Assembly: GCA_000092065.1 (NCBI GenBank)
Contig: CP000597.1
Reading direction: 5' to 3' (one strand)
From: Ostreococcus lucimarinus
Taxonomy: Eukaryota
DNA: 64,000 nt
Below, one piece after another: positions 1,996-19,374 of the stretch. Both the position numbers and the translations under genes were made by a program. The notes beneath the pieces were generated by a model. That model was not told the DNA's origin and searched no databases. It saw nothing but the letters and a program-made list of their open reading frames with translations. The first letter of the stretch is position 1, and each line of letters begins with the position of its first letter.

Positions 1996-4362
1996 CCACT
2001 CGGCCCACTGTATGACGCCGTCGCCGTTCAAATCAGCCGCTTTGGCAATTTTCTGAACGGTCGCGTTGTGAGAGTCCCACAACTTGGCACCCGGAACGAG
2101 GGTTTCGATGAACATATCAATCGTCTTCGCGAACTGCTCTTGATTGAGGTAGGGGAACGGAAACTTTTCATCCGGATTGGACGCGTTGGCTTCAAACAAC
2201 GCGAAGACCTCTTTGTCGAAATCGATTGCAACCGCCGACCTTGTCTCCGCAGAACCTCCAGCGTTCAAACCAGTGCGAGAGCCGATGGCGAACACATCTT
2301 GCGCGAAAGCTTCGATCGCTGAAACGAGTGATTCGTTCAATGCATCCGTAACCGCCGGCCCTGCAGATTCCATCACAGTCGCTTCGGCTCTTCTACTCAA
2401 ACCCGTGTTGAGTCGATGACCGACGACGGTCACCTCAAAATCAGAAGCTACTTGAGCGACGAAAGCAAGAACAAAAGCGTAAACGTTGCCCATGATCTCT
2501 TGAACCGAAGGGATGTCAGCAAAGTCCTTGGTGATCTCCCTCAACGCTCGCGCGTCCGGACGGAAGCGGCTGAGGTCCTTGACGTCGCGCTTCGGCGCTT
2601 GGCGCACCAGCATTCGGATTCTTCGCCCGAGCATGTCGAGCTCAAAATCGGACAACACTGTAGATAAAATATCCACTATGAGTTCAAAACAGTTAATGTA
2701 CAGCAAACGCTCAATGTTATCGGGAATAGCCTTGACGTTGTACATGGGATCGCGAAGGAGGTAGTCGACAAATTCCGAAATCGCCTCTCGAGTCTGCTTT
2801 TGTGCCTTTTTTCTCGCAGCTCTGCTCGGGTCTTCATCACCGTCGATGCTCACACCCAAAATTTGACGTGCCTCCGAGGCTATGTTGCTAAAGTCGCCTC
2901 TACGAATTTCGTTCCCCATTTGCTGCAGGAGGTCGCGGGCGCTGGGTGTCTTCTTCGCGGCGTCGCCTTCGTCGAATGTCAAGGCGTCGTCGTCGAACGA
3001 CGCTGACACGTTTGCTCCGCTCGACGGACTGAGCACACGCATAGAAATGTTGAAACCCAAGTTACTCAACACGGGCTCTTTTCCTATCTCACCGAACAAG
3101 CCGGTGAGGAGGTTGATGTACGTGTCGCGCTCGATTCGTCGGGGAAGAAACACTGACGAGATGGCCATCGCTCGAGTGTCCATATATTCATCGACGCACA
3201 CTTCGATAAGTTGCTTCACCGCGCGCTGCGTCTCCAAACGATCCTCGTCGGAAAAGGAGATGTTTGCAAACGCCTCTCGAGTATCGTCGTCGTAAGGCTC
3301 TAACGCAAACTCCACGGTGAATCCTTTAATCTTTGCCTCCATCGTGAGCGCCTCGGATAACATACCCACCGCAACCTTGGCGACGTTTTCTTGGAGATGC
3401 GGGAACAGATTTGTCGGTGGCGGGGCTTTGAGCTCTTCGCGCGCAATCTTGCGGAGCGTTTGATTCGACAGATTCGGCACGATGTCTAAGTAGCCGTCGC
3501 CGCTCGCGACGAGCTTAGTCCTTCGCCCTTCCGCCATGCCATCCTCTTCGCTCGACACTTCAAAGACGAATTCCCGGTCGAAAAGTTGCAACTTGAACGT
3601 TTTTAACGTATCTTCGAACACGGTCCATCCCGTGAGCGCGCCGTTCGTGTAGAGCTTCCTTTCGAGCGGCCCGGGTAACAAGACGGGAATCCCGCTCGTT
3701 TCGCCGACGACGTCGCCGATAAACTTTGCGAGCTCCTGCTCCTTGATACCACTCTTTTCCGGAACGTGTCTGGCGTCCAGATAATCGCTCATGATCAGAG
3801 GATGCCCCAAAACGCTCGCTCCGACGAGGTTCTGTCGTAAGTTCTTCATCGCCGACGCGTACGCCGCCTTGCAAACCTCGCGATACACCTCGCTCTCCGC
3901 GAACTCCGGAACGAACGGAATATCGTACGCATCGTTAATAATCTTCGCGTAACGATCCAAAACCTTCGCCTCCGCGGATTTCTTCTTCCCTCTCGACGCC
4001 CTGGCCAGCGCCACCGCGGCGGCCCCTCCCGCGACCGCGACGCCCGCGCCCGCCGCCGCGCTCGCCCCCGCCCCGCGCGTCCCCTCCCGCGCTCGCGCTT
4101 CCGCCGCCGTCGACACCGACGCCACCATCTTCGTCCCATCGCGCGCGCGCGCCGGTCGCAATCCCTCCATCGCGTCCTTCGCCGTCCTCTTCGCGCCCTC
4201 GTCCGTCTTCTTCGCGTTCGCGTTCGCGTTCGCGTTCGCGTTCGCGCGTCCCGCGCCCCGCGCCGGTCGCCCTCGCCGATCGCGCGTCCGTCCGACCCGC
4301 GCGCGCGTCGTCGACCCGCGTCCGCCGGTCGTCGCGCGCGCGCGAGACGCTCGCGTCGCCAT
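1918..4362 (-). CDS. Hypothetical 814-aa protein. Its C-terminus has one canonical EF-hand loop (DLNGDGVIQWAE). Its N-terminus is Arg/Ala-rich and may be a targeting sequence.
   Basis: Long uninterrupted ORF with GC3-rich codons. The EF-hand 12-residue loop consensus D-x-N-x-D-G-x-I-x-x-x-E sits directly before the stop. The ANANANANANA stretch is encoded by the (TTCGCG)6 repeat at 4211..4246. Confidence 0.6.
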   Translation of the reverse strand: MATRASRARATTGGRGSTTRARVGRTRDRRGRPARGAGRANANANANANAKKTDEGAKRTAKDAMEGLRPARARDGTKMVASVSTAAEARAREGTRGAGASAAAGAGVAVAGGAAAVALARASRGKKKSAEAKVLDRYAKIINDAYDIPFVPEFAESEVYREVCKAAYASAMKNLRQNLVGASVLGHPLIMSDYLDARHVPEKSGIKEQELAKFIGDVVGETSGIPVLLPGPLERKLYTNGALTGWTVFEDTLKTFKLQLFDREFVFEVSSEEDGMAEGRRTKLVASGDGYLDIVPNLSNQTLRKIAREELKAPPPTNLFPHLQENVAKVAVGMLSEALTMEAKIKGFTVEFALEPYDDDTREAFANISFSDEDRLETQRAVKQLIEVCVDEYMDTRAMAISSVFLPRRIERDTYINLLTGLFGEIGKEPVLSNLGFNISMRVLSPSSGANVSASFDDDALTFDEGDAAKKTPSARDLLQQMGNEIRRGDFSNIASEARQILGVSIDGDEDPSRAARKKAQKQTREAISEFVDYLLRDPMYNVKAIPDNIERLLYINCFELIVDILSTVLSDFELDMLGRRIRMLVRQAPKRDVKDLSRFRPDARALREITKDFADIPSVQEIMGNVYAFVLAFVAQVASDFEVTVVGHRLNTGLSRRAEATVMESAGPAVTDALNESLVSAIEAFAQDVFAIGSRTGLNAGGSAETRSAVAIDFDKEVFALFEANASNPDEKFPFPYLNQEQFAKTIDMFIETLVPGAKLWDSHNATVQKIAKAADLNGDGVIQWAEWYYAAGAINRATKIANKKTLEELKGG
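4211..4246. repeat. Hexanucleotide microsatellite (TTCGCG)6 inside the coding sequence.
   Basis: Read directly: ttcgcg x6. It encodes (AN)n on the minus strand, in the N-terminal region of the 1918..4362 gene. Confidence 0.85.
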
Positions 4363-4716
4363 CGCGTCCGCGCTCGCCCTTCGTTCGTGCGTTCGTTCGA
4401 GCGATTAATCGATCGATCGGGTCGATGAATCGATCGATTAATCGAGCGGGCGTTCGCGCGCGCGCGCGCTCGATCCGCCGTGTCGTCGCCGCGCGATCGC
4501 GCTCGATCCGCGCGCGCGCGATCGTCCTCGCGCGCGAACGTCTCGAGCTCGCCGCGCGTCCGCGCGGGGGGGAACGATCGCGCGCGACGCGGAAGAGGTC
4601 TGTGTTTTTAGGAGACGTCGATTTTCGACGCGCGACGCGCGCCGCGGAGACCGACGGCGAAACCGCGCGGGTTCGGAATGGATGACGTCGCGCTGTGTAA
4701 AACTGTGACTTTACGA

Positions 4717-4818
4717 AACTTGAAAAGACTTGAAACGCGCGACGACTGGATAAAACTTGAAAAGACTTGAAACGCGCGACGACTGGATAAAACTTGAAAA
4801 GACTTGAAACGCGCGACG
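4717..4818. repeat. 37-bp minisatellite, about 2.8 copies (unit aacttgaaaagacttgaaacgcgcgacgactggataa).
   Basis: Copies at 4717-4753, 4754-4790 and 4791-4818 (the last truncated). It lies in the intergenic spacer between the 3' end of the RCC1-repeat gene and the 5' end of the 1918..4362 gene. Confidence 0.85.
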
Positions 4819-4955: not shown

Positions 4956-6086
4956 TCACGTTTGAATAACGATGACTTGCGGCTGTTGCGGCGTAACGGC
5001 GACGGGAGCGCCGCGGGTGGGGATGCCGAGGCGCGCGCGGAGCTTGTCGTCGGCGCGGCGGCGCGACCTGACGCAGAGCCCGATGAGAGTCAAGATGATG
5101 ACGAACGCAATACAACCGACGGCAATACCGGCGATTTCAACGTCGCTCAACGTATCCGCGGAGCGCAACGGAACGATGGTGCCCGGAACGCCGCCGCCAC
5201 CCGAGGAGCCACCCGCGGAGACTGACGTCGTCGTCGTGATGCCCAAAACCTGGACGGGAATATTCGAGCTTGTAGTAGCGTTGTTTCCGAGCTGACCTTT
5301 GTCATTGTAACCCCAGCACTGCACCGTGTCGCCGGCGAGCGTGGCGCAATTGAAGTCGTAACCCGCGGAGACTGACGTCGCCGTCGTGATGTTGGAAACC
5401 TGGACGGGAATATTCGAGCTTGTAGTAGTGCCGTCTCCGAGCTGACTATTGACATTGACACCCCAGCACTGCACCGTGCCGTCGGCGAGCATGGCGCAAT
5501 TGTGGCTGCCACCCGCGGAGACCGACGTCGCCGTCGTGATGCCCGAAACCAGGACAGGAGTAAGTCGGTTTGTCTTAGTGCCGTCTCCGAGCCGACCGTC
5601 GAGATTGTAACCCCAGCACTGCACCGTGCCGTCGGCGAGCATGGCGCACGTGTGGGCGCCACCCGTGGAGACCGACGTCGCCGTCGTGATGCCCGAAACC
5701 AGGACAGGAGTAGGTCGGTGTGTAGTAGTGCCGTCTCCGAGCTGACCTTTGTCATTGTAACCCCAGCACTGCACCGTGCCGTCGGCGAGCGTGGCGCACG
5801 TGTGGCCGCCACCCGCGGAGACTGACGTCGCCGTCGTGATGCCCGAAACCAGGACGGGAGTAAGTCGGTTTGTAGTAGTGCCGTCTCCGAGCTGACCGTT
5901 GGCATTGTAACCCCAGCTCTGCACCGTGCCGTCGGCGAGCAGGGCGCACGTGTGGCTGCCACTCATGGAGCCACCCGCGGAGACTGACGTCGCCGTCGTG
6001 ATGCCCGAAACCAGGACGGGAGTAAGTCGGTATATAGTAGTGCCGTCAGCGAGCTGACCGTCGCCATTGCTACCCCAGCACTGCAC
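4956..6086 (-). CDS. RCC1-repeat (beta-propeller) protein with a C-terminal transmembrane anchor. At least 6 RCC1-like repeats (WGxNxxGQLGDGTTT...HTCAxLADGTVQCWG).
   Basis: The repeat signature is typical of RCC1/HERC blades. The hydrophobic stretch IAGIAVGCIAFVIILTLIGLCV followed by RSRRR looks like a membrane anchor. The ORF begins at a GTG. The same frame continues upstream to an ATG at 6282-6284 and is interrupted only by an in-frame TAG at 6207-6209 (see findings). Confidence 0.7.
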   Translation of the reverse strand: MQCWGSNGDGQLADGTTIYRLTPVLVSGITTATSVSAGGSMSGSHTCALLADGTVQSWGYNANGQLGDGTTTNRLTPVLVSGITTATSVSAGGGHTCATLADGTVQCWGYNDKGQLGDGTTTHRPTPVLVSGITTATSVSTGGAHTCAMLADGTVQCWGYNLDGRLGDGTKTNRLTPVLVSGITTATSVSAGGSHNCAMLADGTVQCWGVNVNSQLGDGTTTSSNIPVQVSNITTATSVSAGYDFNCATLAGDTVQCWGYNDKGQLGNNATTSSNIPVQVLGITTTTSVSAGGSSGGGGVPGTIVPLRSADTLSDVEIAGIAVGCIAFVIILTLIGLCVRSRRRADDKLRARLGIPTRGAPVAVTPQQPQVIVIQT

Positions 6087-6803
6087 CGTGCCGTCGGCGA
6101 GCGTGGCGCACGCGTGGTCGCCGTGTCTCGCGGAGACCGACGTCGCCGTCGTGATGTTGACAACCTGGACGGCGGTATGTCGCTCAACCTTCGACCCGTC
6201 TCCGAGCTAACCGTTGTCATTGATACCCCAGCAATACACCGCGCCGCCGATCTCGACGCACATGCGAGAGTAACCGTTACCCATCGCGCGCGATTCGAAA
6301 ACCCTTCGATCGCCCGCTCGCCCGCGGCTCGTCCGCGCCGCGCGCGTCGCCCGTCGCGCACCGCCCGGGTCTCTCGCGCCGCGCGCGTCGCGATCGGTTC
6401 CTCTCGCACCGACGGTCGCGCGCGCGAGTCCGGCGACGGCGCGCGCGCGACGCGACGCGACGGCGAAAACTCAAAACCCAACGCGGGCGTCCGAGTCCGA
6501 GTCGACGCCCCGTCGACGCGTCGTGTCTGACGCGTAAAATGTTAGAAATCTGAAGAGTAAAATATGACGTATAGCTTTCCCTAGTTAACCTATAATTGTA
6601 ATCATCATCACTCATCGACGCACTAGGCCCGATTGCTCACGATCATATAAGGTATAGCTCGCAAAAACGGGCCTTTTCTGAAACTCGATTTTTGCTAGGG
6701 TTTAGCGACTCCGGTTTTCCGACGGAGGAATTGCGTGCGGGTAGTTCGCATCGTCGGTACTCGTCGACGCCACTCGTCGTTGCGCGAGTTGATCGATATA
6801 CTC

Positions 6804-7085
6804 ATGGGCGCGTGCTTCGGGCGATTCATGGGAGAGACCCAGGCGGAAGAATGGGAACGAAAGCAACGAAAGCTCGAGAAGAAACGAGCCAAGGATGAAC
6901 AGTGCAAACGGGACAACGAAATTTTAAAGGCTGTCTTCAAGGAGGAGGTTCGGGACCTCATCGGTGGCATTCCGGTGCTTCAAAACTTCATCGAGCGACG
7001 GTCGGGGCGAAAAATTACGGCTCGCACAAAAGATGAGAAGATGCGTGACCATGAGGCAGCGCAACGTATAGGGAAGCCCGTTTAA
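6804..7085 (+). CDS. Small hypothetical protein (93 aa from the first ATG) beginning MGACFG, then a charged coiled segment.
   Basis: The ORF sits in an AT-richer island and has lower GC3 than neighbours. The N-terminus fits an N-myristoylation (Gly2) and Cys4 palmitoylation pattern. No homology recognised. The track start at 6735 is a GTG. Confidence 0.25.
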   Translation: MGACFGRFMGETQAEEWERKQRKLEKKRAKDEQCKRDNEILKAVFKEEVRDLIGGIPVLQNFIERRSGRKITARTKDEKMRDHEAAQRIGKPV

Positions 7086-7861: not shown

Positions 7862-8875
7862 CTACTCGGAGACGGCGCCGTCTTCGTCTTCGTCTTCGTC
7901 TTCGTCTTCGCCGTCTTCGACTCGATCGTCGCCGATTTTTACGCCGTGGCGCGATAAAATATCGATCGCGCACTCGGTCCATATTTGTTTTTTGTCGCCG
8001 TCGCTCACGAAGGCGAACAAGACGTCGTCGACGAGCTCGAACTCGTCCTCCGCGGCGCGCGCGTAGGCGAGCGCGCCGTCGAAGATGACGTCCAGCGCGC
8101 TCGCGCGTCTTCGAGCGCGAGCCTCGTTCGCGGCGGTTTCGTCGCTCAACTCTCTCACGACGAGCTTATCTATGATTCTACGCGCCAGTTTTTCAAATTC
8201 CGCCTTCAACGACGCCTCGACGGCGAGTCGATGCGCCTCGTACAGCGTCCTCGCGCGCGCCTCCCCTCCGCGCAATCTCGACACGTCGTCCCGACCCATG
8301 GGATCGCCCACCAAGTCCCGTCGAAACGCTTCGTCGTACGAACGCGCGTACGTCTTCACGCGTTCGGCGCACAACGCCTGAAACGCCGCCTCCGCCTCGT
8401 CGTCCAACAATCGCTCCTTCCGAAACCGCGCCTCGCGTTCATCCCTTCGCCGTCGTTCGCTCGCCTCCGACTCCCTCGCCCTCAACGCTCGCGCCCTCCG
8501 CGCGTCCGCGTCCGCCTCGTCTTCCCCCCGCGCCGCCCTTCGTCTCTTCTCCCCCTCCCTCTTCTCCTCCGCCGCGCGTCGCCGCAGCGCGTCGAACGCC
8601 GCGCGTCGCTCCGAGTGCGTCTTCAGCGCGCGAAACCGCGCGTCGCGCCGCATCTTCATCAGCGCGCGCTCCCAGCGCGCGTCCGCGAGTCCGTCGCCCA
8701 GCCGCGCGCGCACCATCGCCTCGAACGCCTCGACGTCCGCGCGCTTTTCCGTCGTCGCGCGTCGCCACTGCGCGTCGAAATTCGACGATTCGTCGTCGCG
8801 CGTCCCGTCGGTCGCGTCGTCGTCGTACGCGTCCGGGTCGAGGACGACGCCCGCGGCGTCGGCCGCCGTCGCCAT
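7862..8875 (-). CDS. FF-domain-containing protein, likely in the PRP40/TCERG1 family of transcription and splicing factors, with an acidic C-terminal tail (EDEDEDED).
   Basis: Two to three ~55-aa segments match the FF-domain pattern (aromatic...W...RF/RA...F), for example EAFEAMVRARL...WERALMKM...FRALKTHSERRAAFDAL and AEAAFQALCAERVKTYARSYDEAFRRDL. Start taken at the MATAAD ATG (8873-8875). The track start at 8932 is not an ATG-supported N-terminus. Confidence 0.5.
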   Translation of the reverse strand: MATAADAAGVVLDPDAYDDDATDGTRDDESSNFDAQWRRATTEKRADVEAFEAMVRARLGDGLADARWERALMKMRRDARFRALKTHSERRAAFDALRRRAAEEKREGEKRRRAARGEDEADADARRARALRARESEASERRRRDEREARFRKERLLDDEAEAAFQALCAERVKTYARSYDEAFRRDLVGDPMGRDDVSRLRGGEARARTLYEAHRLAVEASLKAEFEKLARRIIDKLVVRELSDETAANEARARRRASALDVIFDGALAYARAAEDEFELVDDVLFAFVSDGDKKQIWTECAIDILSRHGVKIGDDRVEDGEDEDEDEDEDGAVSE

Positions 8876-9071: not shown

Positions 9072-11618
9072 ATGTCGCCGCCCGACGCGCGCGCGGGCGC
9101 GCGCCTGCGCGTCGCCACCATGTTCACCGGCGCCGGCGCGATCGACTACGGGTGCGTCGCGCGCGACGCGCGACGGCGCGACGGCGCGGGAAACGCGCGA
9201 AACGCAAAACCGAACGCCGAACGAACGCGAACGACGACGACGACGGATTCGACGCGCGACGACGACGACGACGACGCGCGACGACGCGAGATCGGGACGA
9301 CAAGGGGAGGATGGCGCGCGAAGACGCGAAGGCGCGCGCGACGGGAGCCCCGGGAGGACGAACGCGCGACTGACGAGACGCGAATTCGGGACGCGCGCGC
9401 GACCAGGCTGACGCGGGCGGGGCACGAGGTGACGCTGCAGTGCGAACGCGACGAGCGCGCGCGGGCGGTGCTGGACGCGCGATTTCAGGGCGTGCGACGG
9501 GCGAGGGAAGCGAGCGAGATCGAGGCGCTGCCGAGGGACGTGGACGTGCTGGTGTGCGGATTGATGACGAGGGAGTACGAGGGGTCGTGGCGAGAGTCGT
9601 GGACGAGAGACGGCGCGGCGGGGGCGCTGAAACACGCGCTGAGGCTGGGGGCGAGCGCGCGCGTGCCGTGGTTGGTGATCGAAGCGAGAGGGAAGATATT
9701 AGATCGTGGAGTCGATGGGAGCGAGGCGCCGTTGATTCATGAGTTTGTGAGCGAGCTGGAGCGAGCGGGGTACGCGTGGGCGCATCGCACGGTGGCGGCG
9801 GCGGCGTTCGGGGTGCCGGATGTCGCCGCGCGGGTGTTGCTCGTCGCCAGTAGATGCGGGGATCCGAGAGATGTGTTATTGACAGAAGACGCGGGGGCGT
9901 TGAAAGTCGATGCGAGGGATCCCGCGGATGAGCACACGTTTGTGTTTAATCGGCACCCCGAACGAGGGTTGTGCGCGTACGCCGACGTGTGCGAAGGATT
10001 TCATCCCGAGCCTGAGGCGTGCATGCTCACCGCCGCGGGTGGTTTGATGCCGCTCACCGTGCATGACGCTGAAAGATTGCAAGGATTGCCTCCGGGATGG
10101 ACGATGACGACGAGACCGAGCGTTCAAGGAAGTCAAGGGGAGGAGCTCACGGCGCGTTGGGACGCTTTGGCGAAGACGTACGGATGCGTCCCAAGTTCAT
10201 ATTGGCTGGGAACTCGGTTAGCGGACCCGTATGCTTTGAAATTTTCTGCCGATGCGGTTCCATTTAGAGAGTCTGTGCCGCACGCTTGGCCGGGGGCGGC
10301 GTACAACGTTGGACACGGGCGTGCGAGCGCCTTGTGCTCGCCGTTTGTCCGTGAAATCACGGAGTTGCCGTGTCTCGGCACGTTTATTTCCACGTCCTTT
10401 TTCGAAGGCGGTCCGCTGGTGCCGAAAGAGACCGCCGTGGCGTGCGCGCGCGTGCTTAGAGAGTCTGGCTGGGAGGTCCCTCCCCAGCTAGAGGCTTTGG
10501 AAAACGGCGAGGGAGAGATCGCCGTCGTCGAGCCGCGGGTGAAGAACGAACAGGCGCCTGCGGTCGAGCCACTGACGATAGCGACTCCGGCGGCACGGGC
10601 GCAGACCTCTCGCTACGATGAGTTTGTTTCAGCGCCACCGGCTTTGGTCGAACGCACGTTGCCTTTGATAAAGACGAAGAGCGGACATTTAATCGTCGAC
10701 CAAGACGAGGTGAAACGTTCGTCCAATTTTCCCATCGACATCGAGGCGAAGCGGTACAAGAGAAGCATCACGCCATCGTCGGCGGATATCGAGCCTGGAT
10801 CGCCAGGATCAACTCCGGGAACCATGACGTTCATCGCCGGCGTCGGTTTAGCTGCGCCAAGACGAAACCAGCTCGTTTGGGCCAAGCTCCCAGGTCATCC
10901 ATTTTGGCCGGGATTGCGAGCGGATTTGGACAAGGACTTCATCCCAGCGGATGCTCTCGCGATGGCGAGAGAAAACGAAGTACTCGTCGTGTTCTTTGGA
11001 GAAAATTCATTCGGTTGGCTGCGGGCGGAGCATTGCTTAGATTTTACCGAGCACTACGCATCGAAGAGTCGGGATCCGGCGAGGAACAAGGCGCGCTTCC
11101 AAGCGGCGGTGAAGCAAGCGAACGAGGAGCTGCAAATACGAGAGACGTTGCACGAGCGCGATAGATTACGTAAAATGGCGACGCAAAGTACTGCGCATAA
11201 GTTCCGTTCGCGCGGTGGCTCACCCATGCCCGAATTGAAGGGTTGTACGTGCAAGTCGTGCACGAGCATCTCCGCCGACGGTTCGGAATCGCCCAAGTGC
11301 ATACGTGTAGAAGCCGCCGAGAAGGCTAGTCGAGGTCACACAGGCGCCAAGCTTACGATTCAAGGTAGAACTATCATCGGTAAGCAAATTTTGGTGTTTT
11401 GGCCTCTCGACCGAGCGTCATATCCGGGTAAAATAGTCGATTACGATCCCGTCGAGCTTAGACATTGCGTCGAGTATGCCGAAGACGGCGTTAAAGAATT
11501 CTTGTCGCTGTGGAAGGAAGATGTAACATTACCGCCGGGTGAAAGACTCGGCCCGACTCTTCCAGAAGCAGATGAAGCTGGTGCTGATTTGTTGCTGGGA
11601 CTCACGGCGAGAGGATAA
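9072..11618 (+). CDS. Chromatin protein with an N-terminal DNA (cytosine-5) methyltransferase-like domain, a PWWP domain and a C-terminal Tudor/Agenet-like domain. The DNMT-like domain has non-canonical motifs.
   Basis: C5-MTase motifs I read in the translation: motif I MFTGAGAIDYG (FxGxG), motif IV region DVLVCGLMTREYEG (VCG replaces PCQ), motif VI PWLVIEARG (EAR replaces ENV), motif VIII AFGVPDVAARVLLVASR, and motif IX/X LTVHDAERLQGLPPGWT. PWWP: LVWAKLPGHPFWPGLRADL...VLVVFFGENSFGWL at ~10870-11030. Tudor-like: ILVFWPLDRASYPGKIVDYDP...EFLSLWKEDV at ~11385-11525. Confidence 0.7.
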   Translation: MSPPDARAGARLRVATMFTGAGAIDYGCVARDARRRDGAGNARNAKPNAERTRTTTTTDSTRDDDDDDARRREIGTTRGGWRAKTRRRARREPREDERATDETRIRDARATRLTRAGHEVTLQCERDERARAVLDARFQGVRRAREASEIEALPRDVDVLVCGLMTREYEGSWRESWTRDGAAGALKHALRLGASARVPWLVIEARGKILDRGVDGSEAPLIHEFVSELERAGYAWAHRTVAAAAFGVPDVAARVLLVASRCGDPRDVLLTEDAGALKVDARDPADEHTFVFNRHPERGLCAYADVCEGFHPEPEACMLTAAGGLMPLTVHDAERLQGLPPGWTMTTRPSVQGSQGEELTARWDALAKTYGCVPSSYWLGTRLADPYALKFSADAVPFRESVPHAWPGAAYNVGHGRASALCSPFVREITELPCLGTFISTSFFEGGPLVPKETAVACARVLRESGWEVPPQLEALENGEGEIAVVEPRVKNEQAPAVEPLTIATPAARAQTSRYDEFVSAPPALVERTLPLIKTKSGHLIVDQDEVKRSSNFPIDIEAKRYKRSITPSSADIEPGSPGSTPGTMTFIAGVGLAAPRRNQLVWAKLPGHPFWPGLRADLDKDFIPADALAMARENEVLVVFFGENSFGWLRAEHCLDFTEHYASKSRDPARNKARFQAAVKQANEELQIRETLHERDRLRKMATQSTAHKFRSRGGSPMPELKGCTCKSCTSISADGSESPKCIRVEAAEKASRGHTGAKLTIQGRTIIGKQILVFWPLDRASYPGKIVDYDPVELRHCVEYAEDGVKEFLSLWKEDVTLPPGERLGPTLPEADEAGADLLLGLTARG

Positions 11619-11702
11619 TGATATAGCCGCACGTCACGAACGATACGATCCGAAGATTTTTGTGATAACAAAGCCTGTCTGTACTAAAAGCTTACTTCGC
11701 CG

Positions 11703-13058
11703 CTAAGCTGACGCGGATTCGAAGGTATCGTATATCGAGTCGCTCGATTCGACGTGCTTGAGCGTTTCGTTTACTGTTGTGAAGTGCTCGATTTCGTCGC
11801 TCTGATCGAACGCGGCTGCGCGTTTGACGGAGCTCTCGCTCAATTCAAATGTGTCCAATCGAGAAAGAAACGACGGTGACAAAGAGGTATCGTTCGTCGA
11901 TGGCGACACGATATCATCGGAGACGTGATTCAAGTACGATCGCGTCGCCTTCTGTACGTCCGCTGTGGCTCGCGTCACGCGATCCATGGCATCTATCATC
12001 ACTTTGGCCATCGCGCGACCCTCCTCCGTGGAGACGTCGACAGAGTTGAAAGCCACCATGTTCTCGGGCCTGAGAATCGATGCATTCATAATTTCAGCCA
12101 TATTCTTGCGCATGTCAATAAGCTCGTCTTCGTACTCGCGCGTCACTCGCATTCGCTCCTCGTGCTCAGCCACGAGCTGCTCGCTCAAGTCCCGAATCTT
12201 TGTCTCGTACAAGCGCGTTGACCTCGGCGATGTTGCGCCGCGAAGTCGCTCGATTTCCCTTGCCCGCTCCTCGCTAATCTCATTGATCTTCTCTAATTCC
12301 CATCGAAGTTCTGTAATAGTTTCCCAATCATCGATCGTCATCGTCGCCGGCCGCCCGTCGATCGGCTCGTTCGACTTGCGCTTCTGCTTGGTTTCTCTCG
12401 CGTTTGGCTCGCGCTTCTGCTCAATTTCACTCGCGCTCGCCAAACTCGCTCGACTCGCCTTTCTGCTCGATTTCTTCGCCGCCGTCTCCATCTCCCGTTG
12501 CGCTAGTCGCACCGCGCGCGCGCGCGTCTCCTCGCTCTGACAATACGCCACCGCCCCGGGTCCCAACTTTCTCGCAAACGAAATCGCCGTCGCCGCGCCG
12601 CTCGCCGCATTCGCTCGCACTTCGCACGTCCAATACATCACCGCCAACGCATCAAACGTCGCCTGAAACTCCCCTCGCTCGACACCATCGACCGATATCG
12701 CATTTGCCGGCACCCGCTCTCTCGCTAAAATCCCTCGCAGCGTCTGAAACGGGTGTTTCATCGCCGCGGCGCCGCCGCGCGTCGACGCGCTCGTCCCCGC
12801 TCGCGACGTCCCCGTCAACGCCTCGAACGATTCCGGCCACGCGCGCGCGGCGCACGCCAACGCTCCGACACTACGTTTTAGATCACTCCACACCAGCGCG
12901 CTCGTATCGCTCTCGCCCCCACGCGTCGCGCGCACGGCGTCGACGCTTCGCCGCGCGAACTCGAGCAGTTCAGATTTCCCAACCTCAATCCCCGTCTCCG
13001 TCGTCCGCGCGCGCGTCGACGCGCTGTTCGACGCGCCGTTCGATGCGACGTCGCGCAT
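11703..13058 (-). CDS. Hypothetical 451-aa protein with a central charged coiled-coil region.
   Basis: Uninterrupted ORF with an ATG at 13056-13058. Codon bias matches neighbours. It sits divergent to the megaenzyme gene with a 217-bp spacer. No family recognised. Confidence 0.5.
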   Translation of the reverse strand: MRDVASNGASNSASTRARTTETGIEVGKSELLEFARRSVDAVRATRGGESDTSALVWSDLKRSVGALACAARAWPESFEALTGTSRAGTSASTRGGAAAMKHPFQTLRGILARERVPANAISVDGVERGEFQATFDALAVMYWTCEVRANAASGAATAISFARKLGPGAVAYCQSEETRARAVRLAQREMETAAKKSSRKASRASLASASEIEQKREPNARETKQKRKSNEPIDGRPATMTIDDWETITELRWELEKINEISEERAREIERLRGATSPRSTRLYETKIRDLSEQLVAEHEERMRVTREYEDELIDMRKNMAEIMNASILRPENMVAFNSVDVSTEEGRAMAKVMIDAMDRVTRATADVQKATRSYLNHVSDDIVSPSTNDTSLSPSFLSRLDTFELSESSVKRAAAFDQSDEIEHFTTVNETLKHVESSDSIYDTFESASA

Positions 13059-13275
13059 ACTTTCGATCCGCGCGCTTCGAGCGCCCGAAATCGCCGCGCG
13101 CGCGTCACCGAGTGCGGATTTAACCGGTTTTCGCTTGAAAAAGATGCCATCTAATCTCGGCGATCGCCATCACATCGCGACGTCGCTCGCGCGCGCGACG
13201 CCTGTCGCGCCCCCGCGCGTCGCGATCGCGAAGAAATCGTAAGTTCGCGCTCGTCGACGGTGAGATCGGGACGAC

Positions 13276-16200
13276 ATGGAGTACGTCGACGCGTCAACGC
13301 TGCGAAAACTGTCGACGTCGGGTGACATCATCATCGTCGACGCGAGCTGGGCGATCGCGAACGACGTCGAGCGCGCGCGCGCGGCGCACGAGAGCGAGCG
13401 CATCCCGAACGCGACGTTTTATGATCACGACGAGGTGTGCGACCTGTCGTCGCCGCTGCCGCAGGCGTTCCCGCCGCGGGAAGCGTTCGCGCGAGGCGTC
13501 GGCGGCGGACTCGGGGCGACGAAGACGCGAGACGTGGCGATATACGCGAAAAACGGCGCGTCTTGCGCGGCGGAGGCGTGTGCGTTCGCGTTCTTGGAAT
13601 ATGGACATCGAGGACGGGTGATGGTGCTCAAGGGAGGGATGGAGGCGTGGAAGGCGGAAGGCTACGAGACGGAGGTCGGGGCGGAGACGATGCGCGAGCG
13701 GGCGACGGTGGAGTACGACGAAGACGGATCGAACGGAACGCGCGAGGGGAAGAAATCGGGATTCGTCGACGCGAAAGATTTGTTGACGAACTTGAGCACG
13801 CAGCGGTTGCAAGTGCTGGATTGCCGACAGTCGGAGGTGTTCGCGGGAGGGGCGAGAGACGCGGCGTACGTTCGGATTCAGGATCGAGCGATTCAGTTCG
13901 AGGGCTTCCGCGAAGGGCACATTCCGGGGGCGAAGAATTTACCGTACACGCGGTTGTTCGACGTCGCGGACGAAAACTTGCGAGAAATATTCGAGGGCGC
14001 GGGGTTGGACCTGTCCATGCCCGTGGCCGTGGTCGGTTCGGGGGGCGTCGACGCGGCGCCGATGGTGGCGTCAGCGCTCACGCGCGCCGGGTGCGCCGAC
14101 GCCGTGGTGCTAAAGAACGGTATGTGTGCGTGGTGCACGGCGCAAGGGAGCTCGTATCCGATGTCCATCGCTAGCACTTCTCCGCACGCTTCGCACAACG
14201 AAAAGCGCCTGATCGTTTGGGCGGTGACTCGATCGCGCGGCACCGCGCTCGAACGCTCGTTCTCTATGCACTCCGAGGCGATGGTCATGCACGAGTTACT
14301 CACGGAGCCGTGCTTGAAGGAGAATAATCCGGAAAATTACGCCAAGATTGTCAGTGGACAATCTGAACATCATGTCGCGAGCAGTGGATGCAGCTATGCG
14401 ACGATGTTAGAGGTGATGACGGCGGATTACTCCGCGCAAGGACGTCCATTCTTCTTCTCCAAAGAGCTGTCGTGTTACTTTGACTTGAAGCAAATGAAGT
14501 CGAGCTGGTTAAAACGGTTCACGCACGTGGTGTTGATTCGACAACCGACGGAAACGATAGAGTCATTTTATCGCGTCTCCATTGAACACAAGGAAGGGAG
14601 CTGCTATTATGATCCATCTGAGGCTGGATTTGCGGAAGCTTTTGGTATCGTAAACGCGTTGAAGCGTATCAATGCCAAGGTTATGGTCGTCGACGCTGAC
14701 GCGGATTTGCTGTCGCGACCAGAGGAGACGCTCCAAGAGATGTGTTCGCTGGCAAACGTGAACTTTGAGAGTTCGATGTTGTCATGGAAGCCCGCAGAGT
14801 TGTCAACGTGGATCAAATTTCGCGGTTGGCACGACGATGCGGCGAGATCGAGCGAGTTCAAAGCTGTCGACAAGGCACCGATGCAAAACGTACCGCCGGA
14901 ACTCTGCGTCGATGCGGCGAAGCAACAACCGTATTACGACGCCATAGGGTGGGAGCGCAAAGAAACTTCCAAGCGTTGGCCGTTCTTACGCCAGCTCACG
15001 AATCCGACGCATCGGTTCTCCGTCGTCGTGTGCGCATCGGATGAAGGCGCTATGGATATGTTCCCTCGTCTTGCCGCCGCGCGTCTGAGCGGCGTCAACT
15101 TGTACGAGTTCAAGCCGAGCGAAGTTGATCAGGCGATGAATAAATGCCCGTATATTTTCGACGACCCGATCGTTCTAGTGGGCGCACACGGACCCACGCT
15201 GCACATGGCCGAGGCACTGCGCGAGCGTGCGCAGAAGGACGGAACTTTGTGCATCGTACGCATAGTTCTCGTCGACGCTTCGGCGCATCGCGTTCGACCC
15301 GAAGGATTCGAGCACAGCTGGGTCCCAGAAGATTCGCTCAAGGATCAAACCAGCATGGACGAAGTTTTACAGAGTATTTTAGTCGACATCGAAACGGCAC
15401 AAAGCAAAAGTGCGAAGGAGATGGCGGATGTGAACGCGTTAGCCTCGACGACGACGTCGGCGGCGACGCACTGGCGCTCGGGTTTGGCGACGGCGTTGCA
15501 AGACGCTCGCTCCGACAAACCTTGCGTTACAGATGCGACGAGTACGTACACGATGAAAGAAGTGTACTCGCGTGCGTATCACGTCGCAGATATGCTCACC
15601 GAACGCGGTGCGCTGAACTCTCGTGTGGGTTTGTTTGTGCAAGCCTCCGCGGCGTCGGTGTGGTGCGCCATGGGTTCACTCTTGTGTGAATCTGTGTTTT
15701 GCGAAATCCCCGCGTGGTATCGCGACACCGACCTCGAACGCGTGTTGCGTTTGAACGAGTCGAAAGTCATAATAACTTCTCGTGATCTCGTGCAGTTCGT
15801 ACCCACCGCGTACAGAGACTTGGTCGTGGTCGTCGAGGACATGGAGTACGACGTCGACTTGAGCGGCGAGCTTCATCCGGCGCTGACGCGTCCTGACACT
15901 CCCGATGCCCCCGGGTTCTCCGTACTCACCAGTGGCACTACTGGTGTGAGTAAAATTCTGTGCTGTCCACAATCCGCGCTGACGGACTCGCAATCGGTCA
16001 TTGGGCCACACATGCGTGGCGACGATGTCATGGGGAGCTTTTGGGTCTATTATTACTTCTTCATTCCGCTCCTCGCTGGTCGCACGCTGAGCGTCATCCC
16101 GAACGATTTCTTCCTCAAGCCCCGAGAGTTGATTTCGTATGTGCGAAGTCAAAAAATGACCATGCTTTACCTCAGTCCGAGTATCCTGGAGAGCTGTTTG

Positions 16201-19200
16201 TTGCACTGCACGCCGCAAGAGTTCTCCGAAGGGATGCAAGACGTGCACACAATTTTATTGACCGGTGAACGCGTGCGAAGAGAGACTCGTATGCTTCTCG
16301 CCGAGCGTCTCACCCGTACGCGTTTGATTGACGTGTACAGCACGAACGAAACGGGTGATTTGGCGATATCTGATTACGGTGGAGCGTTCTTCCTGCGTGA
16401 GGGCACGCAAGCGCGCGTGTTGACGGATGACGGCAAGCCAGCTGTTCGCGGCACCGTCGGCCAGCTTCACGTTAAAAAGAGTGGTTTGCTCGTTGGCTTC
16501 TACACGGATAACGGTTACGCGAAGATCGAAAGCGAGTGGTATCCAACTGGCGATCTCGTTCGTTGGTTAGGTCGCAACAGGTTGACTTTTGAATCTCGTC
16601 AAAAGTCGGCATACGTCAAGATTCGTGGCTTCAAGGTTTCGCCGGTCATGGTACAAGACGTCATGCTCAAGATGCCAGTGATTAAACAGGCCATCGTGAG
16701 CACGATCGGACAGTCTGACATTGACCAGCAACTCGTCGCTGCTATCTCCTTCAACAACGGTGCGCGAGCGAAGGAGAGCGAATTGCGGGCACACATGGCA
16801 GCGCACGTGCCGCACTACATGATTCCGTCGACGTTTTACGACCTCGGCAACAAAGTGTCCACAGCTACCTCTGGTAAAGTGGTCAAGCTTGATGTCGATA
16901 GGCTGGACAAAATCACCGATAGTAACGAAGTGCAACTGACTACAAAGCAAAATGAGGTCGTGGAGGTGTGGCGCCAAGTGTTAGATCAACCGGAGAAGAA
17001 CTTCGCGGCGACGGAGAGCTTTTTCGACTACGGCGGAAGCTTGAAATTTGTTGAGCTTGCGGCGGCACTTTCGAAGAAATGGGGGGTGAGTTTGACGGTT
17101 CCCGAAGTCATCGCCAAGCCGACGCTGGCTGAGATGGCCCTACTTATGGAAGATTATAAAAACGCCAAGTTTGAGCCCGAGGTCGAAGTCGCAAAGTATG
17201 ACTTTTCCGAGTTCAAGCGAGCGCCAAAGAAGAATACTGCGGCGGGCAAGAAGAATATTCTCCTTACCGGCGCTACTGGTTTTCTTGGTGCGTACTTGCT
17301 TCAAGAACTCGCCGCAAGCGATGAAATTGATCAGATTTACGCTATCGTGCGCGCAAAAGACAAGTTTGCGGCGCAAAATCGCGTGCTCGATGTCTTCCGT
17401 AAGCGCGGGCTCACGTTTACCGATCAAATAACGCAAAAGACAACGTTCATGTGTGGTGACATGTCAATGCCGTTGTACGACATACCCGAAGCCACGCTCG
17501 CGCCAGTTTTGGAAGTGATTGACGTTGTCATCAGCGGTGGCGCGGAAGTCAATATGGTGAAGTCTTATTCAGCGTTAGAAAAGGTAAACGTCGGAGGAAC
17601 GTTCAACGGGCTCGAGATCGCGTCGCGCGCCGGCGCTAGACACGTTCTCATTTCCACGCAGTATCCGCTTCCGGGTGAAGTTTCAACGGGATACCGACGA
17701 AGTAAAGAGGTCGCGGAGATGCTATGCGAGCGCGCGCAGAAAGAAGTTGGCGTTGAGTCGGCCGTTTTATTGTTTGGTGACATCGGTATTTCTCGTGCCG
17801 TCGGTTCGCTCGCGCCCGACGATGACTACATCGTCATCTTCCTCCGCGCCTGCCTCGCGACAGGTTTCTTCCCACGTACCGAGTGGGCTGTTAGTATCTT
17901 GTGCGTCGATGATTGCGTGAAGATGCTCACGTCAATCTCATTATCCGGCCAAGTCGATCGTTATGCGTTTGACGGCGTCGCGCGTGAAGTAAAGGGTAAA
18001 CTGATGCCGTTTTCTCAACTTTACGAATGGCTCTCCAAGGAGTACGCGTTGCAGCTGTGCAGCTACGATGGCTGGCTCAATGCAGTTAAGGCTGGCGCCG
18101 CCGAAGGCAACACGATCCTTCAGCGCGCGCTCCTGACGATTGATTCCATGGAAGTCGAACTCAGAGCGGAGGGTGAGCACTTCAACTCGCAGGCGGCGTC
18201 AGATGCGCTCTTCTCCGTGGACGAAGCGTGGGGTAAGAACCTCGTCGGTGCGCTAATTCTCGAACTCTACAGCGAACTTCAAAATGACGACAAAGACACC
18301 ACCATCGGCTTCGCCGCGTTGGCGCAAGGCGAAGATTTGGTTCCGTTCAAGTATCGCCTCCCAGACATGACCCCGACGTCTGTCGAGGTGAAGGTCGAGT
18401 ACTGCGGCTTGTGCGGAAGTGATGATCACTTGATCGTGGGTGACTATGGTGAATATGCGGTGTGGCCGCAAGTTTGCGGACACGAAGTCGTGGGTACGGT
18501 CACCCAAGTTGGCACGGCGGTGACGACGCTAAAAGCCGGTCAACGCGTTGGCGTCGGCTGGCAGAGCTCGTCTTGCCACGATTGCGAGTGGTGCGCGCGA
18601 GGCGATGAGCAGCTGTGCTCTAGTGTCGGTTGTACATGCTGCGAAGGTAACAAAGGTGGTTTCGCCGATCGCATGCGCTTAAACGACTCGCAATTCTGCT
18701 ACAAAATCCCAGACGCGCTGTCTTCCGCGGAAGTCGCGCCGTTGCTATGCGGTGGCCAAACCGTTTGGACGCCTTTGAACGAGCAAACGAAGTCTAGCGA
18801 TCGCGTCGGCATTCTCGGCCTCGGTGGACTCGGTCACATGGCCATCAAGTTCGCCAAGGCGCTCGGTCGAGAAGTCACCGCGATTTCGTCTTCGGCGTCG
18901 AAGCGCGCCGACGCCCTGTCGCACGGCGCGTCGCGCTTTTTGGTGCACACCAACCAAGAAGAGATGGATGCCGCCGCCTCATCGCTCGACTTCATCCTAG
19001 TCACCATCGCCACGAATAAAGAGGTGGACTTCGCGAAGTTTTTCCCCTTGTTACGCCCGCGTGGGACGATTTGTTTCGTCGGCATGTGCCCTCCCATCCA
19101 AGCCGACGTCTTCACTCTCGGCTTCACCATGAACAACATCACAACGAGTAACACCGGGGGCAAAAAGGACATGGTTCAAATGCTCGAATTCTGCGCCCGA

Positions 19201-19374
19201 CACAAGATCGGCGCCTCCGTCGCCGTGAGTCCGCTCAGCGAGATCAACACCGCCATCACGGCTTTGCGCACGGGCGAATCCCACTTCCGACACGTCCTCG
19301 TCAACGACGTCTCGAGCGGTAGTCAACACCGTCGCATGGCCAGCGCCTTCGGCAGCGGCTTCCCTTCCCGTTAA
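13276..19374 (+). CDS. Multidomain megaenzyme (2032 aa): rhodanese, rhodanese, sulfotransferase-like, AMP-dependent adenylation, phosphopantetheine carrier, NAD(P)-dependent thioester reductase, and a Zn-dependent MDR alcohol dehydrogenase.
   Basis: Rhodanese 1 (~13276-13680): IIIVDASW...ERIPNATFYD. Rhodanese 2 (~13780-14150): VLDCRQSEVF...GHIPGAKNLP. Sulfotransferase-like (~14210-15300): IVWAVTRSRGT. A-domain core motifs: LTSGTTGVSK (~15927-15950), YSTNETGD, YPTGDL, KIRGFKV. Carrier: FFDYGGSL (~17020-17040). Reductase: LLTGATGFLGAYL (~17263-17300). ADH: CGLCGSD, GHEVVG (~18478-18500), GLGGLGHMAIKFAKALG. One uninterrupted ORF with an ATG at 13276. Confidence 0.85.
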   Translation: MEYVDASTLRKLSTSGDIIIVDASWAIANDVERARAAHESERIPNATFYDHDEVCDLSSPLPQAFPPREAFARGVGGGLGATKTRDVAIYAKNGASCAAEACAFAFLEYGHRGRVMVLKGGMEAWKAEGYETEVGAETMRERATVEYDEDGSNGTREGKKSGFVDAKDLLTNLSTQRLQVLDCRQSEVFAGGARDAAYVRIQDRAIQFEGFREGHIPGAKNLPYTRLFDVADENLREIFEGAGLDLSMPVAVVGSGGVDAAPMVASALTRAGCADAVVLKNGMCAWCTAQGSSYPMSIASTSPHASHNEKRLIVWAVTRSRGTALERSFSMHSEAMVMHELLTEPCLKENNPENYAKIVSGQSEHHVASSGCSYATMLEVMTADYSAQGRPFFFSKELSCYFDLKQMKSSWLKRFTHVVLIRQPTETIESFYRVSIEHKEGSCYYDPSEAGFAEAFGIVNALKRINAKVMVVDADADLLSRPEETLQEMCSLANVNFESSMLSWKPAELSTWIKFRGWHDDAARSSEFKAVDKAPMQNVPPELCVDAAKQQPYYDAIGWERKETSKRWPFLRQLTNPTHRFSVVVCASDEGAMDMFPRLAAARLSGVNLYEFKPSEVDQAMNKCPYIFDDPIVLVGAHGPTLHMAEALRERAQKDGTLCIVRIVLVDASAHRVRPEGFEHSWVPEDSLKDQTSMDEVLQSILVDIETAQSKSAKEMADVNALASTTTSAATHWRSGLATALQDARSDKPCVTDATSTYTMKEVYSRAYHVADMLTERGALNSRVGLFVQASAASVWCAMGSLLCESVFCEIPAWYRDTDLERVLRLNESKVIITSRDLVQFVPTAYRDLVVVVEDMEYDVDLSGELHPALTRPDTPDAPGFSVLTSGTTGVSKILCCPQSALTDSQSVIGPHMRGDDVMGSFWVYYYFFIPLLAGRTLSVIPNDFFLKPRELISYVRSQKMTMLYLSPSILESCLLHCTPQEFSEGMQDVHTILLTGERVRRETRMLLAERLTRTRLIDVYSTNETGDLAISDYGGAFFLREGTQARVLTDDGKPAVRGTVGQLHVKKSGLLVGFYTDNGYAKIESEWYPTGDLVRWLGRNRLTFESRQKSAYVKIRGFKVSPVMVQDVMLKMPVIKQAIVSTIGQSDIDQQLVAAISFNNGARAKESELRAHMAAHVPHYMIPSTFYDLGNKVSTATSGKVVKLDVDRLDKITDSNEVQLTTKQNEVVEVWRQVLDQPEKNFAATESFFDYGGSLKFVELAAALSKKWGVSLTVPEVIAKPTLAEMALLMEDYKNAKFEPEVEVAKYDFSEFKRAPKKNTAAGKKNILLTGATGFLGAYLLQELAASDEIDQIYAIVRAKDKFAAQNRVLDVFRKRGLTFTDQITQKTTFMCGDMSMPLYDIPEATLAPVLEVIDVVISGGAEVNMVKSYSALEKVNVGGTFNGLEIASRAGARHVLISTQYPLPGEVSTGYRRSKEVAEMLCERAQKEVGVESAVLLFGDIGISRAVGSLAPDDDYIVIFLRACLATGFFPRTEWAVSILCVDDCVKMLTSISLSGQVDRYAFDGVAREVKGKLMPFSQLYEWLSKEYALQLCSYDGWLNAVKAGAAEGNTILQRALLTIDSMEVELRAEGEHFNSQAASDALFSVDEAWGKNLVGALILELYSELQNDDKDTTIGFAALAQGEDLVPFKYRLPDMTPTSVEVKVEYCGLCGSDDHLIVGDYGEYAVWPQVCGHEVVGTVTQVGTAVTTLKAGQRVGVGWQSSSCHDCEWCARGDEQLCSSVGCTCCEGNKGGFADRMRLNDSQFCYKIPDALSSAEVAPLLCGGQTVWTPLNEQTKSSDRVGILGLGGLGHMAIKFAKALGREVTAISSSASKRADALSHGASRFLVHTNQEEMDAAASSLDFILVTIATNKEVDFAKFFPLLRPRGTICFVGMCPPIQADVFTLGFTMNNITTSNTGGKKDMVQMLEFCARHKIGASVAVSPLSEINTAITALRTGESHFRHVLVNDVSSGSQHRRMASAFGSGFPSR

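What the first reader, a model, noticed from the sequence alone, without database searches (positions are those of the whole stretch)
4956..6284. RCC1-repeat gene interrupted by a single in-frame TAG, and a membrane-anchored RCC1 propeller
The reading frame that encodes the RCC1 blades runs continuously from an ATG at 6282-6284 to the stop at 4956. The only interruption is one TAG at 6207-6209, where the blade consensus expects CAG (Gln) in GQLGDG. This could be a sequencing or assembly error, a recent nonsense mutation (a pseudogene in progress), or translation starting downstream at an internal site. Separately, an RCC1 propeller followed by a transmembrane anchor and a short basic tail is an unusual topology. 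The blade-encoding DNA is itself a ~156-bp tandem repeat, which spawns long artefactual ORFs in the other frames.
Basis: seen in the sequence. Interest (0 to 1): 0.5.

Follow-up and report, generated by a model that had tools for sequence, protein, structure and literature searches.

The report
Strain-private stop codon in RCC1 gene
The reference strain of the tiny marine alga Ostreococcus lucimarinus carries a single premature stop codon in a gene for a membrane-anchored seven-bladed propeller protein; every wild copy recovered is intact, so this is an ordinary strain-specific knockout or a base-call error, not a new coding rule.

Summary
One frame runs from the ATG at 6284 to the TGA at 4956 on the minus strand, and its only interruption is a TAG at 6207-6209, at the Gln position of the GQLGDG motif. 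The window is nuclear DNA of Ostreococcus lucimarinus CCE9901.

TAG is a normal stop here: three of twelve credible genes in the window end in TAG. All 15 environmental contigs of the same species that cover this codon read CAG. One of them has a coding sequence identical to the window at 1328 of 1329 bases. The TAG is therefore private to the reference strain. It is most likely a recent C-to-T nonsense mutation giving a null allele, and less likely a base-call error. Raw reads are needed to decide.

The intact protein has 442 residues: a closed seven-blade RCC1-like propeller, a Gly-rich linker, one transmembrane helix and a 37-residue basic tail. The helix and tail form a module shared with a small family of signal-peptide-bearing algal surface proteins (DUF285 or Cys-rich ectodomains). 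The RCC1 member has no signal peptide, so its topology is unresolved.

The shorter "alleles" in metagenomes are at least partly assembly artefacts of the 150-bp repeat. Interest is low.

The parts
4956..6284 (-). Single-exon RCC1-like gene: 442 codons plus a TGA stop (4956-4958), interrupted in this strain at codon 26
   Evidence: The intact 442-aa product is found in wild contigs (P0002, P0203, P0229).
6207..6209 (-). In-frame TAG (codon 26). The T at 6209 on the minus strand (A on the plus strand) is C (G on the plus strand) in all 15 environmental contigs.
6258..6284 (-). N-terminus MGNGYSRMC. It has no hydrophobic signal segment and fits the G-x-x-x-[STAGCN] N-myristoylation pattern. Diverged homologues keep it as MGNLFA and MGNLFG. 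The model places residues 2-12 as propeller strands.
5232..6284 (-). Seven RCC1 blades (residues 1-351; units start at residues 12, 63, 117, 167, 217, 267, 317), encoded by the 150-bp tandem array
5964..5966 (-). Next in-frame ATG after the TAG (codon 107). A product starting here would have 336 aa and lack blades 1-2.
5136..5213 (-). Gly/Ser-rich linker (residues 358-383), predicted disordered
5070..5135 (-). Transmembrane helix IAGIAVGCIAFVIILTLIGLCV (residues 384-405)
   Evidence: The AGIAVGC motif is shared with the family.
4959..5069 (-). Basic tail RSRRRADDKLRARLGIPTRGAPVAVTPQQPQVIVIQT (residues 406-442). This is the conserved family module RRRR..D.LRA.LGI...PQ.Q(I/V)I(I/V)(I/V)Q.
6285..6803 (.). 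Non-coding region upstream of the RCC1 gene, shared with the divergently transcribed small gene ABP00415 (6804-7085, plus strand). It contains no signal-peptide exon.

Best explanation
The window comes from the nuclear genome of Ostreococcus lucimarinus CCE9901. The locus is a single-exon, lineage-restricted gene. Its normal product is a 442-residue protein: a closed seven-blade RCC1-like beta-propeller, a flexible Gly-rich linker, one transmembrane helix and a conserved basic tail. In the reference strain one C-to-T transition turned codon 26 from CAG (Gln) into TAG. TAG is an ordinary stop in this genome, so translation ends after 25 residues. Restarting at the next ATG (codon 107) would give a five-blade fragment without the N-terminal closure strands. 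The allele is therefore most likely null, carried by this cultured strain while the wild population keeps the gene intact. Shown: the sequence, the organism, TAG acting as a stop, CAG in all wild contigs, the fold and the shared anchor module. Inferred: that the T is real rather than a base-call error, that the allele is null, and any cellular function.
For: Organism: window ORFs are identical to GenBank proteins ABP00521, ABP00522, ABP00416, ABP00520 and ABP00415 of O. lucimarinus CCE9901.

TAG is a stop: the FF-domain gene, the 451-aa gene ABP00521 and the four-domain ion-channel gene all end in TAG.

Wild alleles: 15 contigs from independent metagenomes, 99-99.7% identical to the window, read CAG. 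L023 differs from the window coding sequence only at nucleotide 76.

Private changes are common in the reference. There are about 9 events in the 11.5 kb covered by at least 4 wild contigs, roughly 0.8 per kb. From my own knowledge, not checked here, that is far above a finished-sequence error rate of about 1e-5. A private difference is therefore a priori much more likely real than an error.

Fold: the AlphaFold2 model has pLDDT above 90 over residues 1-350 with 28 strands, the N-terminal strands included. The best PDB match is UVR8 (E 2e-36, rmsd 1.8 A), followed by the HERC1/2, RPGR and RCC1 propellers.

Intact ORFs with the same architecture persist in homologues of 76-83% identity (P0034, P0106).
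Against: No raw reads, traces or transcripts of strain CCE9901 could be examined, so a base-call error is not excluded. All six private coding changes of the reference in this neighbourhood alter the protein, and two are dinucleotide changes. That pattern would also fit a few local sequence errors. No assembly carrying the TAG allele was found: the 376-aa and 336-aa downstream ORFs are absent from the protein collection. Nothing independent therefore confirms the T. Expression and function of the gene are untested.
Confidence: 0.65

Rival explanations
1. The T at 6209 is a base-call or finishing error in the reference sequence, and strain CCE9901 really has CAG and an intact gene.
For: Every other copy recovered has C. 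One wild haplotype is otherwise identical across the coding sequence. The reference's private coding changes nearby are all protein-altering and include two odd dinucleotide changes.
Against: The reference shows about 0.8 private events per kb here, far more than finishing errors should give, so most private differences must be real. The site lies in blade 1, the least repetitive unit (67-76% identity to the others). No other blade has TAG at this position, so repeat misassembly cannot create it.
Confidence: 0.27
2. The TAG is real but the gene still yields a working protein, either by initiation at a downstream start or by leaky readthrough of UAG (near-cognate tRNA-Gln would even restore Gln).
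For: The base after the stop is C (TAG-C). From general knowledge, not tested here, that is a relatively leaky context. An in-frame ATG exists at codon 107.
Against: A product starting at Met107 lacks two blades and the N-terminal strands used for propeller closure in the model. There is no known readthrough motif after the stop (sequence). Basal readthrough is typically below 1% (general knowledge).
Confidence: 0.05
3. TAG is decoded as glutamine in this organism (a variant genetic code) or is removed by splicing or editing.
For: The TAG sits exactly where Gln is expected. TAG-to-Gln codes exist in some other eukaryotes (general knowledge).
Against: Three credible genes in the same window terminate at TAG, one matching its GenBank protein exactly. 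The wild alleles encode CAG, not TAG. No tRNA gene lies in the window. The only GT..AG pair spanning the codon that I inspected by eye (6280-6207, 74 nt) is not a multiple of three and would delete well-modelled blade strands.
Confidence: 0.01

Closest known systems
Secreted or surface bacterial RCC1-repeat arrays (COG5184, 'alpha-tubulin suppressor-like RCC1 family protein')
   Same: They share the blade consensus (HTCA.L.DG.V.CWG.N..GQLGDG..T....P) and are 45-53% identical over about 78% of the query. One of them, P0075, also has seven blades followed by a C-terminal hydrophobic anchor and a basic end.
   Different: Those examined have N-terminal signal peptides, and most are about 750 aa, roughly twice as long. 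None carries the algal tail module. Whether the algal array came from bacteria was not tested by phylogeny.
UVR8 (Arabidopsis UV-B photoreceptor), the best structural match
   Same: A seven-blade RCC1-type propeller: Foldseek E 2e-36, rmsd 1.8 A over 361 columns, 30% identity; phmmer E 5e-47.
   Different: There is no tryptophan cluster. The only Trp residues are the seven in the C/S-W-G motif. There is no soluble C-terminal COP1-binding region; a transmembrane helix and basic tail take its place.
RCC1, HERC1/HERC2 and RPGR RCC1-like domains
   Same: Same fold, with E 1e-24 to 1e-29.
   Different: The blades are uniform at 50-54 residues, so there is no room for the RCC1 beta-wedge insertion (the wedge itself is from general knowledge). 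There are no HECT, BTB or kinase partner domains. The protein is membrane-anchored by a transmembrane helix.
Unnamed family of Ostreococcus-like type I surface proteins with DUF285 or Cys-rich ectodomains (P0275-P0285)
   Same: They share the juxtamembrane, transmembrane and tail module: AGIAVGC...CVRRRRR..D.LRA.LGI...PQ.QIIIVQ, 42-55% identity over about 75 residues. Only 14 hits were found in 1.84 billion proteins.
   Different: Those proteins have signal peptides and DUF285 (PF03382, E 1e-33 to 1e-69) or TNFR-like Cys-rich repeats. The RCC1 member has neither a signal peptide nor those domains.

Membership tests
RCC1-like domain (RLD) seven-blade propeller | Seven RCC1 repeats of about 50-60 residues scoring above Pfam thresholds | tested here: met
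   PF00415 scores 218 bits (cut-off 21.7) in 7 stretches. PF25390 scores 227 bits (cut-off 150).
RCC1-like domain (RLD) seven-blade propeller | Closed seven-blade fold superposable on solved RLDs | tested here: met
   The AF2 model has pLDDT above 90 for residues 1-350. Foldseek matches UVR8, HERC, RPGR and RCC1 with target-normalised TM-scores of about 0.75-0.89. This is a prediction, not an experiment.
RCC1 proper (Ran guanine-nucleotide exchange factor) | Beta-wedge insertion in one blade and a chromatin/NLS N-terminal tail | tested here: not met
   The blades are 50-54 residues and the largest insertion is 4 residues. The propeller starts at residue 2. The defining features are taken from general knowledge.
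RCC1 proper (Ran guanine-nucleotide exchange factor) | GEF activity on Ran | not testable with these tools
   This needs biochemistry.
UVR8 photoreceptors | Tryptophan cluster (GWRHT motifs) at the dimer face | tested here: not met
   The only Trp residues are at 19, 70, 124, 174, 224, 274 and 324, all in the C/S-W-G motif. The blades read GG.HTCA, not GWRHT.
Algal type I surface-protein family sharing the TM/tail module | Conserved transmembrane helix plus RRRR..LRA.LGI..PQ.QIIIVQ tail | tested here: met
   Exhaustive phmmer search and alignment.
Algal type I surface-protein family sharing the TM/tail module | N-terminal signal peptide | tested here: not met
   The highest 19-residue hydropathy in the N-terminal region is 0.46, against 2.97 for the transmembrane helix. 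No upstream ATG or exon is available. Signal peptides in the other members were judged by reading their sequences; no predictor was run.
Tail-anchored membrane proteins | No signal peptide and a single transmembrane helix so close to the C-terminus that insertion is post-translational (commonly fewer than about 30-40 residues after it) | tested here: inconclusive
   There is no signal peptide, and the helix ends 37 residues before the C-terminus, which is borderline. The strongly basic segment after the helix and the family context argue for a cytosolic tail instead.
N-myristoylated proteins | M-G-{EDRKHPFYW}-x-x-[STAGCN]-{P} at the N-terminus | tested here: inconclusive
   MGNGYSR, MGNLFAR and MGNLFGR all fit the pattern. 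The pattern is short and recalled from PROSITE, and the modification itself is untested.
Stop-codon reassignment (TAG read as Gln) | TAG not used as a terminator, and in-frame TAG at conserved Gln sites across genes | tested here: not met
   Three of 12 credible genes in the window end in TAG. Wild alleles have CAG at this site.

The most novel reading that the evidence does not exclude
The RCC1 protein may be one member of a modular, lineage-specific set of Ostreococcus surface proteins. These would be built on a constant transmembrane/tail chassis carrying interchangeable bacterial-type ectodomains (DUF285, Cys-rich, RCC1). On this reading the null allele in the cultured strain is a natural presence/absence-type polymorphism, for example a lost virus or bacterium contact site, and the propeller is exported without a classical signal peptide.
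Probability: 0.08. Interest if true: 0.55.

Novelty: new member of a known kind. Interest (0 to 1): 0.2.

Why it matters
The practical consequence is for annotation. In the O. lucimarinus CCE9901 reference this locus should be read as a disrupted copy of a gene that is intact in the wild population, not as evidence for recoding or an unusual start. It also illustrates that 150-bp blade repeats make short-read assemblies produce false truncated or blade-deleted "alleles".

The side result may be useful to people studying the cell surface of picoalgae. A very rare transmembrane/tail module is shared by signal-peptide-bearing DUF285 and Cys-rich proteins and by a signal-peptide-less RCC1 propeller. 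This does not change any general picture.

Tried and rejected
1. A variant code (TAG read as Gln) was rejected, because TAG ends three genes in the window.

2. An intron removing the TAG was rejected. The only GT..AG pair spanning it that I inspected by eye is 74 nt, and the region encodes well-modelled blade strands.

3. Natural truncated alleles: the 228-aa and 178-aa ORFs found on many metagenome contigs looked like population-level disruption. They turned out to follow runs of N or a collapse-induced frameshift inside the repeat array. For the same reason the 392-, 342-, 331- and 321-aa in-frame "alleles" cannot be trusted as real blade-number variants.

4. An upstream signal-peptide exon was not found. 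The in-frame upstream stretch has no ATG, GTG or TTG and is not hydrophobic, and a divergent gene starts 520 bp upstream.

5. The reference annotation for this locus was not recovered. Exact look-ups of the 376-, 336- and 416-aa candidates and of the intact 435-aa form (start at Met8) found nothing. By accession order the model would be ABP00519, but that is a guess.

6. Independent reads of the strain could not be reached.

7. Selection test: among seven full-length wild alleles plus the window there are 7 nonsynonymous, 1 synonymous and 1 nonsense variable codons. Neighbouring genes show similar ratios (2:10 and 2:11, synonymous:nonsynonymous), so this says nothing specific about the RCC1 gene.

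8. Viral origin: IMG/VR holds many RCC1 arrays, but the best is 51% identical and none has the tail.

9. Literature: a search for 'RCC1' with 'Ostreococcus' mostly returned Roscoff culture-collection strain numbers. The genome paper is not held.

Full report
**Observation.** On the minus strand of the window one frame runs from the ATG at 6284-6282 to a TGA at 4958-4956. It has 442 codons and a single internal stop, a TAG at 6209-6207 (codon 26), inside 'YCWGINDNG*LGDG'. At the equivalent position, five of the other six blades use CAG and one uses CGG. Pfam recognises seven RCC1 repeats (PF00415, 218 bits) and the RCC1-like domain PF25390 (227 bits against a cut-off of 150). The coding DNA is a tandem array with a 150-bp period, 6.8 copies, 83% matches. 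Blades 2-5 are 89-93% identical in DNA and blade 1 is 67-76% identical to the others. The array generates long ORFs in other frames.

**Source of the window.** Several window ORFs are letter-for-letter identical to GenBank proteins of Ostreococcus lucimarinus CCE9901: ABP00521, ABP00522 (ubiquilin), ABP00416 (PWWP), ABP00520 (FF domain) and ABP00415. They lie on a 366,173-bp record. The neighbouring genes are typical eukaryotic genes, including PIP5K, ubiquilin and a four-domain cation channel. This is nuclear DNA of a green picoalga with mostly intronless genes.

**Is TAG a stop here?** Yes. Of twelve credible genes in the window, three end in TAG: the FF-domain gene, the 451-aa gene that matches ABP00521 exactly, and the ion-channel gene. 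No tRNA gene lies in the window. A variant code is excluded for practical purposes.

**What other copies of the gene carry.**
- A protein search with the Gln-restored sequence found a 442-aa protein 99% identical over its full length, in a cluster of 59 sequences. It also found shorter relatives of 76-98% identity, all from marine metagenomes.
- I recovered DNA for 15 contigs from independent samples that cover codon 26 and are 99-99.7% identical to the window: L001, L002, L007-L015, L017-L019 and L023. Where they extend into the flanks, gene order matches the window. All read CAG.
- The window allele with Gln at position 26 exists exactly in the collection (P0229). Its contig, L023, has a coding sequence identical to the window at 1328 of 1329 nucleotides, differing only at nucleotide 76. 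The flanks differ more: 11 mismatches and 4 gaps over the 1912-bp alignment that contains the coding sequence, only one of those mismatches lying in the CDS.
- The TAG is therefore a single C-to-T change private to the reference sequence, on a haplotype that circulates intact in the sea.

**Real mutation or error?** I could not reach reads of the strain.
- In the 11.5 kb around the gene that is covered by at least four wild contigs, the reference has 12 private positions, about 9 events, or roughly 0.8 per kb. My recollection of the finished-sequence standard is about 1 error per 100 kb. The observed rate is far higher, so most private differences must be genuine.
- Selection against nonsense changes lowers that prior. 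In addition, all six private coding changes nearby alter the protein, and two are dinucleotide changes. That pattern leaves some room for local errors.
- I put a real nonsense allele at about 0.65-0.7 and a base-call error at about 0.25-0.3.
- Misassembly of the repeats cannot explain the TAG, because no other unit contains it.

**Consequence of the TAG.**
- The next in-frame ATG is codon 107.
- An AlphaFold2 model of the intact wild-type protein P0002 (99% identical to the window allele) has mean pLDDT 83.8, and above 90 for residues 1-350. It shows 28 strands forming a closed seven-blade propeller in which residues 2-4 and 7-12 are strands. A disordered linker follows (residues 352-386), then a long helix from 381 to 419 that contains the hydrophobic segment 384-405.
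- A product starting at Met107 would lack two blades and the N-terminal strands, so it should not form the propeller. This is inference.
- Leaky readthrough of UAG could give traces of full-length protein, but nothing in the sequence suggests a programmed event.
- The allele is best read as null.

**What the protein is.**
- By fold it is an RCC1-like domain. The best PDB match is UVR8 (E 2e-36, rmsd 1.8 A, 30% identity), followed by the HERC1/2, RPGR and RCC1 propellers.
- It is not a UVR8-type photoreceptor. Its only tryptophans are the seven in the C/S-W-G motif.
- It has no room for the RCC1 beta-wedge, because the blades are a uniform 50-54 residues.
- By sequence its blades are closest to long secreted bacterial RCC1 arrays (45-53% identity). 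Those I read have N-terminal signal peptides, and one (P0075) also ends in a hydrophobic anchor with a basic end.

**The anchor.**
- An exhaustive HMMER search with the last 85 residues (linker, transmembrane helix, tail) against 1.84 billion representative proteins found only 14 hits.
- Apart from the RCC1 cluster itself, the hits are proteins with the same AGIAVGC...CVRRRRR..D.LRA.LGI...PQ.QIIIVQ module at the C-terminus.
- Their N-terminal parts carry clear signal peptides, by reading of the sequences, plus DUF285 domains (PF03382, E 1e-33 to 1e-69) or TNFR-like Cys-rich repeats.
- The anchor is thus the common chassis of a small, lineage-restricted family of type I surface proteins.
- The RCC1 gene is the only 50%-identity cluster that combines this module with RCC1 blades.

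**Unresolved: topology.**
- The family context and the basic residues after the helix argue that the tail is cytosolic and the propeller outside.
- Yet the RCC1 member has no signal peptide: maximum N-terminal hydropathy is 0.46, against 2.97 for the helix.
- The ATG at 6284 is the first start after an in-frame stop. The upstream 460 bp are non-coding, nearly invariant among wild contigs, and end at a divergently oriented gene.
- The N-terminus fits the N-myristoylation pattern in three diverged homologues: MGNGYS, MGNLFA and MGNLFG.
- Either the propeller is cytosolic and held on a membrane at both ends, or a 380-residue propeller is exported unconventionally. I cannot decide this with the tools available.

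**Cautions about metagenome 'alleles'.**
- Proteins of 392, 342, 331 and 321 aa differ from the 442-aa form by whole blades. ORFs of 228 and 178 aa occur on many contigs.
- Inspection showed the short ORFs are produced by scaffold gaps (runs of N) or by a frameshift at a collapsed repeat.
- In-frame loss of blades is exactly what repeat collapse would give. Blade-number polymorphism is therefore unproven.
- Counts of nonsynonymous against synonymous variants (7:1 among full-length alleles) resemble those of the neighbouring genes and are uninformative.

**Verdict.** The TAG is a change private to the reference strain in an otherwise intact, population-wide gene. It is most likely a recent nonsense mutation giving a null allele, with a base-call error as the serious rival. 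It is not recoding, not an intron and not evidence for a downstream start. The protein is a new member of the RCC1-like propeller class. It sits on a rare algal transmembrane/tail module, and the missing signal peptide is the only real oddity. Interest is low (0.2).

Noticed in passing
window 4716-4818: A perfect 37-bp minisatellite (2.8 copies, 100% matches) lies between the RCC1 stop codon and the next gene. From offsets in the BLAST alignments, its copy number appears to differ among wild contigs: about four more copies in L001 and one fewer in L023.
   Followed up: partly
window 6804-7085 (+): A small gene identical to GenBank ABP00415 (93 aa, starting MGACFGRF) is transcribed divergently from the RCC1 gene. 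It has no Pfam match, and its N-terminus also looks like an acylation motif.
   Followed up: partly
window 13276-19374 (+): A 2032-aa multidomain gene combines two rhodanese domains, a sulfotransferase domain, AMP-binding, a phosphopantetheine carrier, an NAD_binding_4 reductase and a zinc alcohol dehydrogenase. This is an NRPS-like carboxylate reductase fused to sulfur-transfer domains.
   Followed up: no
window 36951-47045 (+): A 3364-aa ORF whose only Pfam match is a bacterial pre-peptidase C-terminal (PPC) domain. A 2221-aa ORF lies on the opposite strand within it (38477-45142).
   Followed up: no
window 2609-2610, 3638, 8379, 8470-8471, 9198: The reference strain carries private differences from all wild contigs in three neighbouring genes. 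Every one changes the protein (E585L, V242A, R166Q, A136S, G43R; written wild residue, position, reference residue), and two are dinucleotide changes. These are either strain-specific mildly deleterious variants or local sequence errors.
   Followed up: partly
L003 (Logan SRR1179203 contig), matching window 9260-23058: A 13.8-kb contig assembled from a public sequencing run is 100% identical to the window, unlike all other contigs (99.4-99.9%). That run may be the reference strain itself and could settle the TAG question.
   Followed up: no
L013-L019 (metagenome contigs), region matching window 5200-6000: Short-read assemblies break or collapse inside the 150-bp blade array (runs of N, a frameshift, in-frame loss of whole blades). 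This yields spurious 228-aa and 178-aa gene calls, which are widespread in public protein collections.
   Followed up: yes
L024 (IMGVR_UViG_3300027741_000026, 141 kb), 3001-4056: A large contig classed as viral encodes an RCC1 array 51% identical to this protein. Eighty viral contigs in all encode RCC1 arrays, and none has the algal transmembrane/tail module.
   Followed up: no
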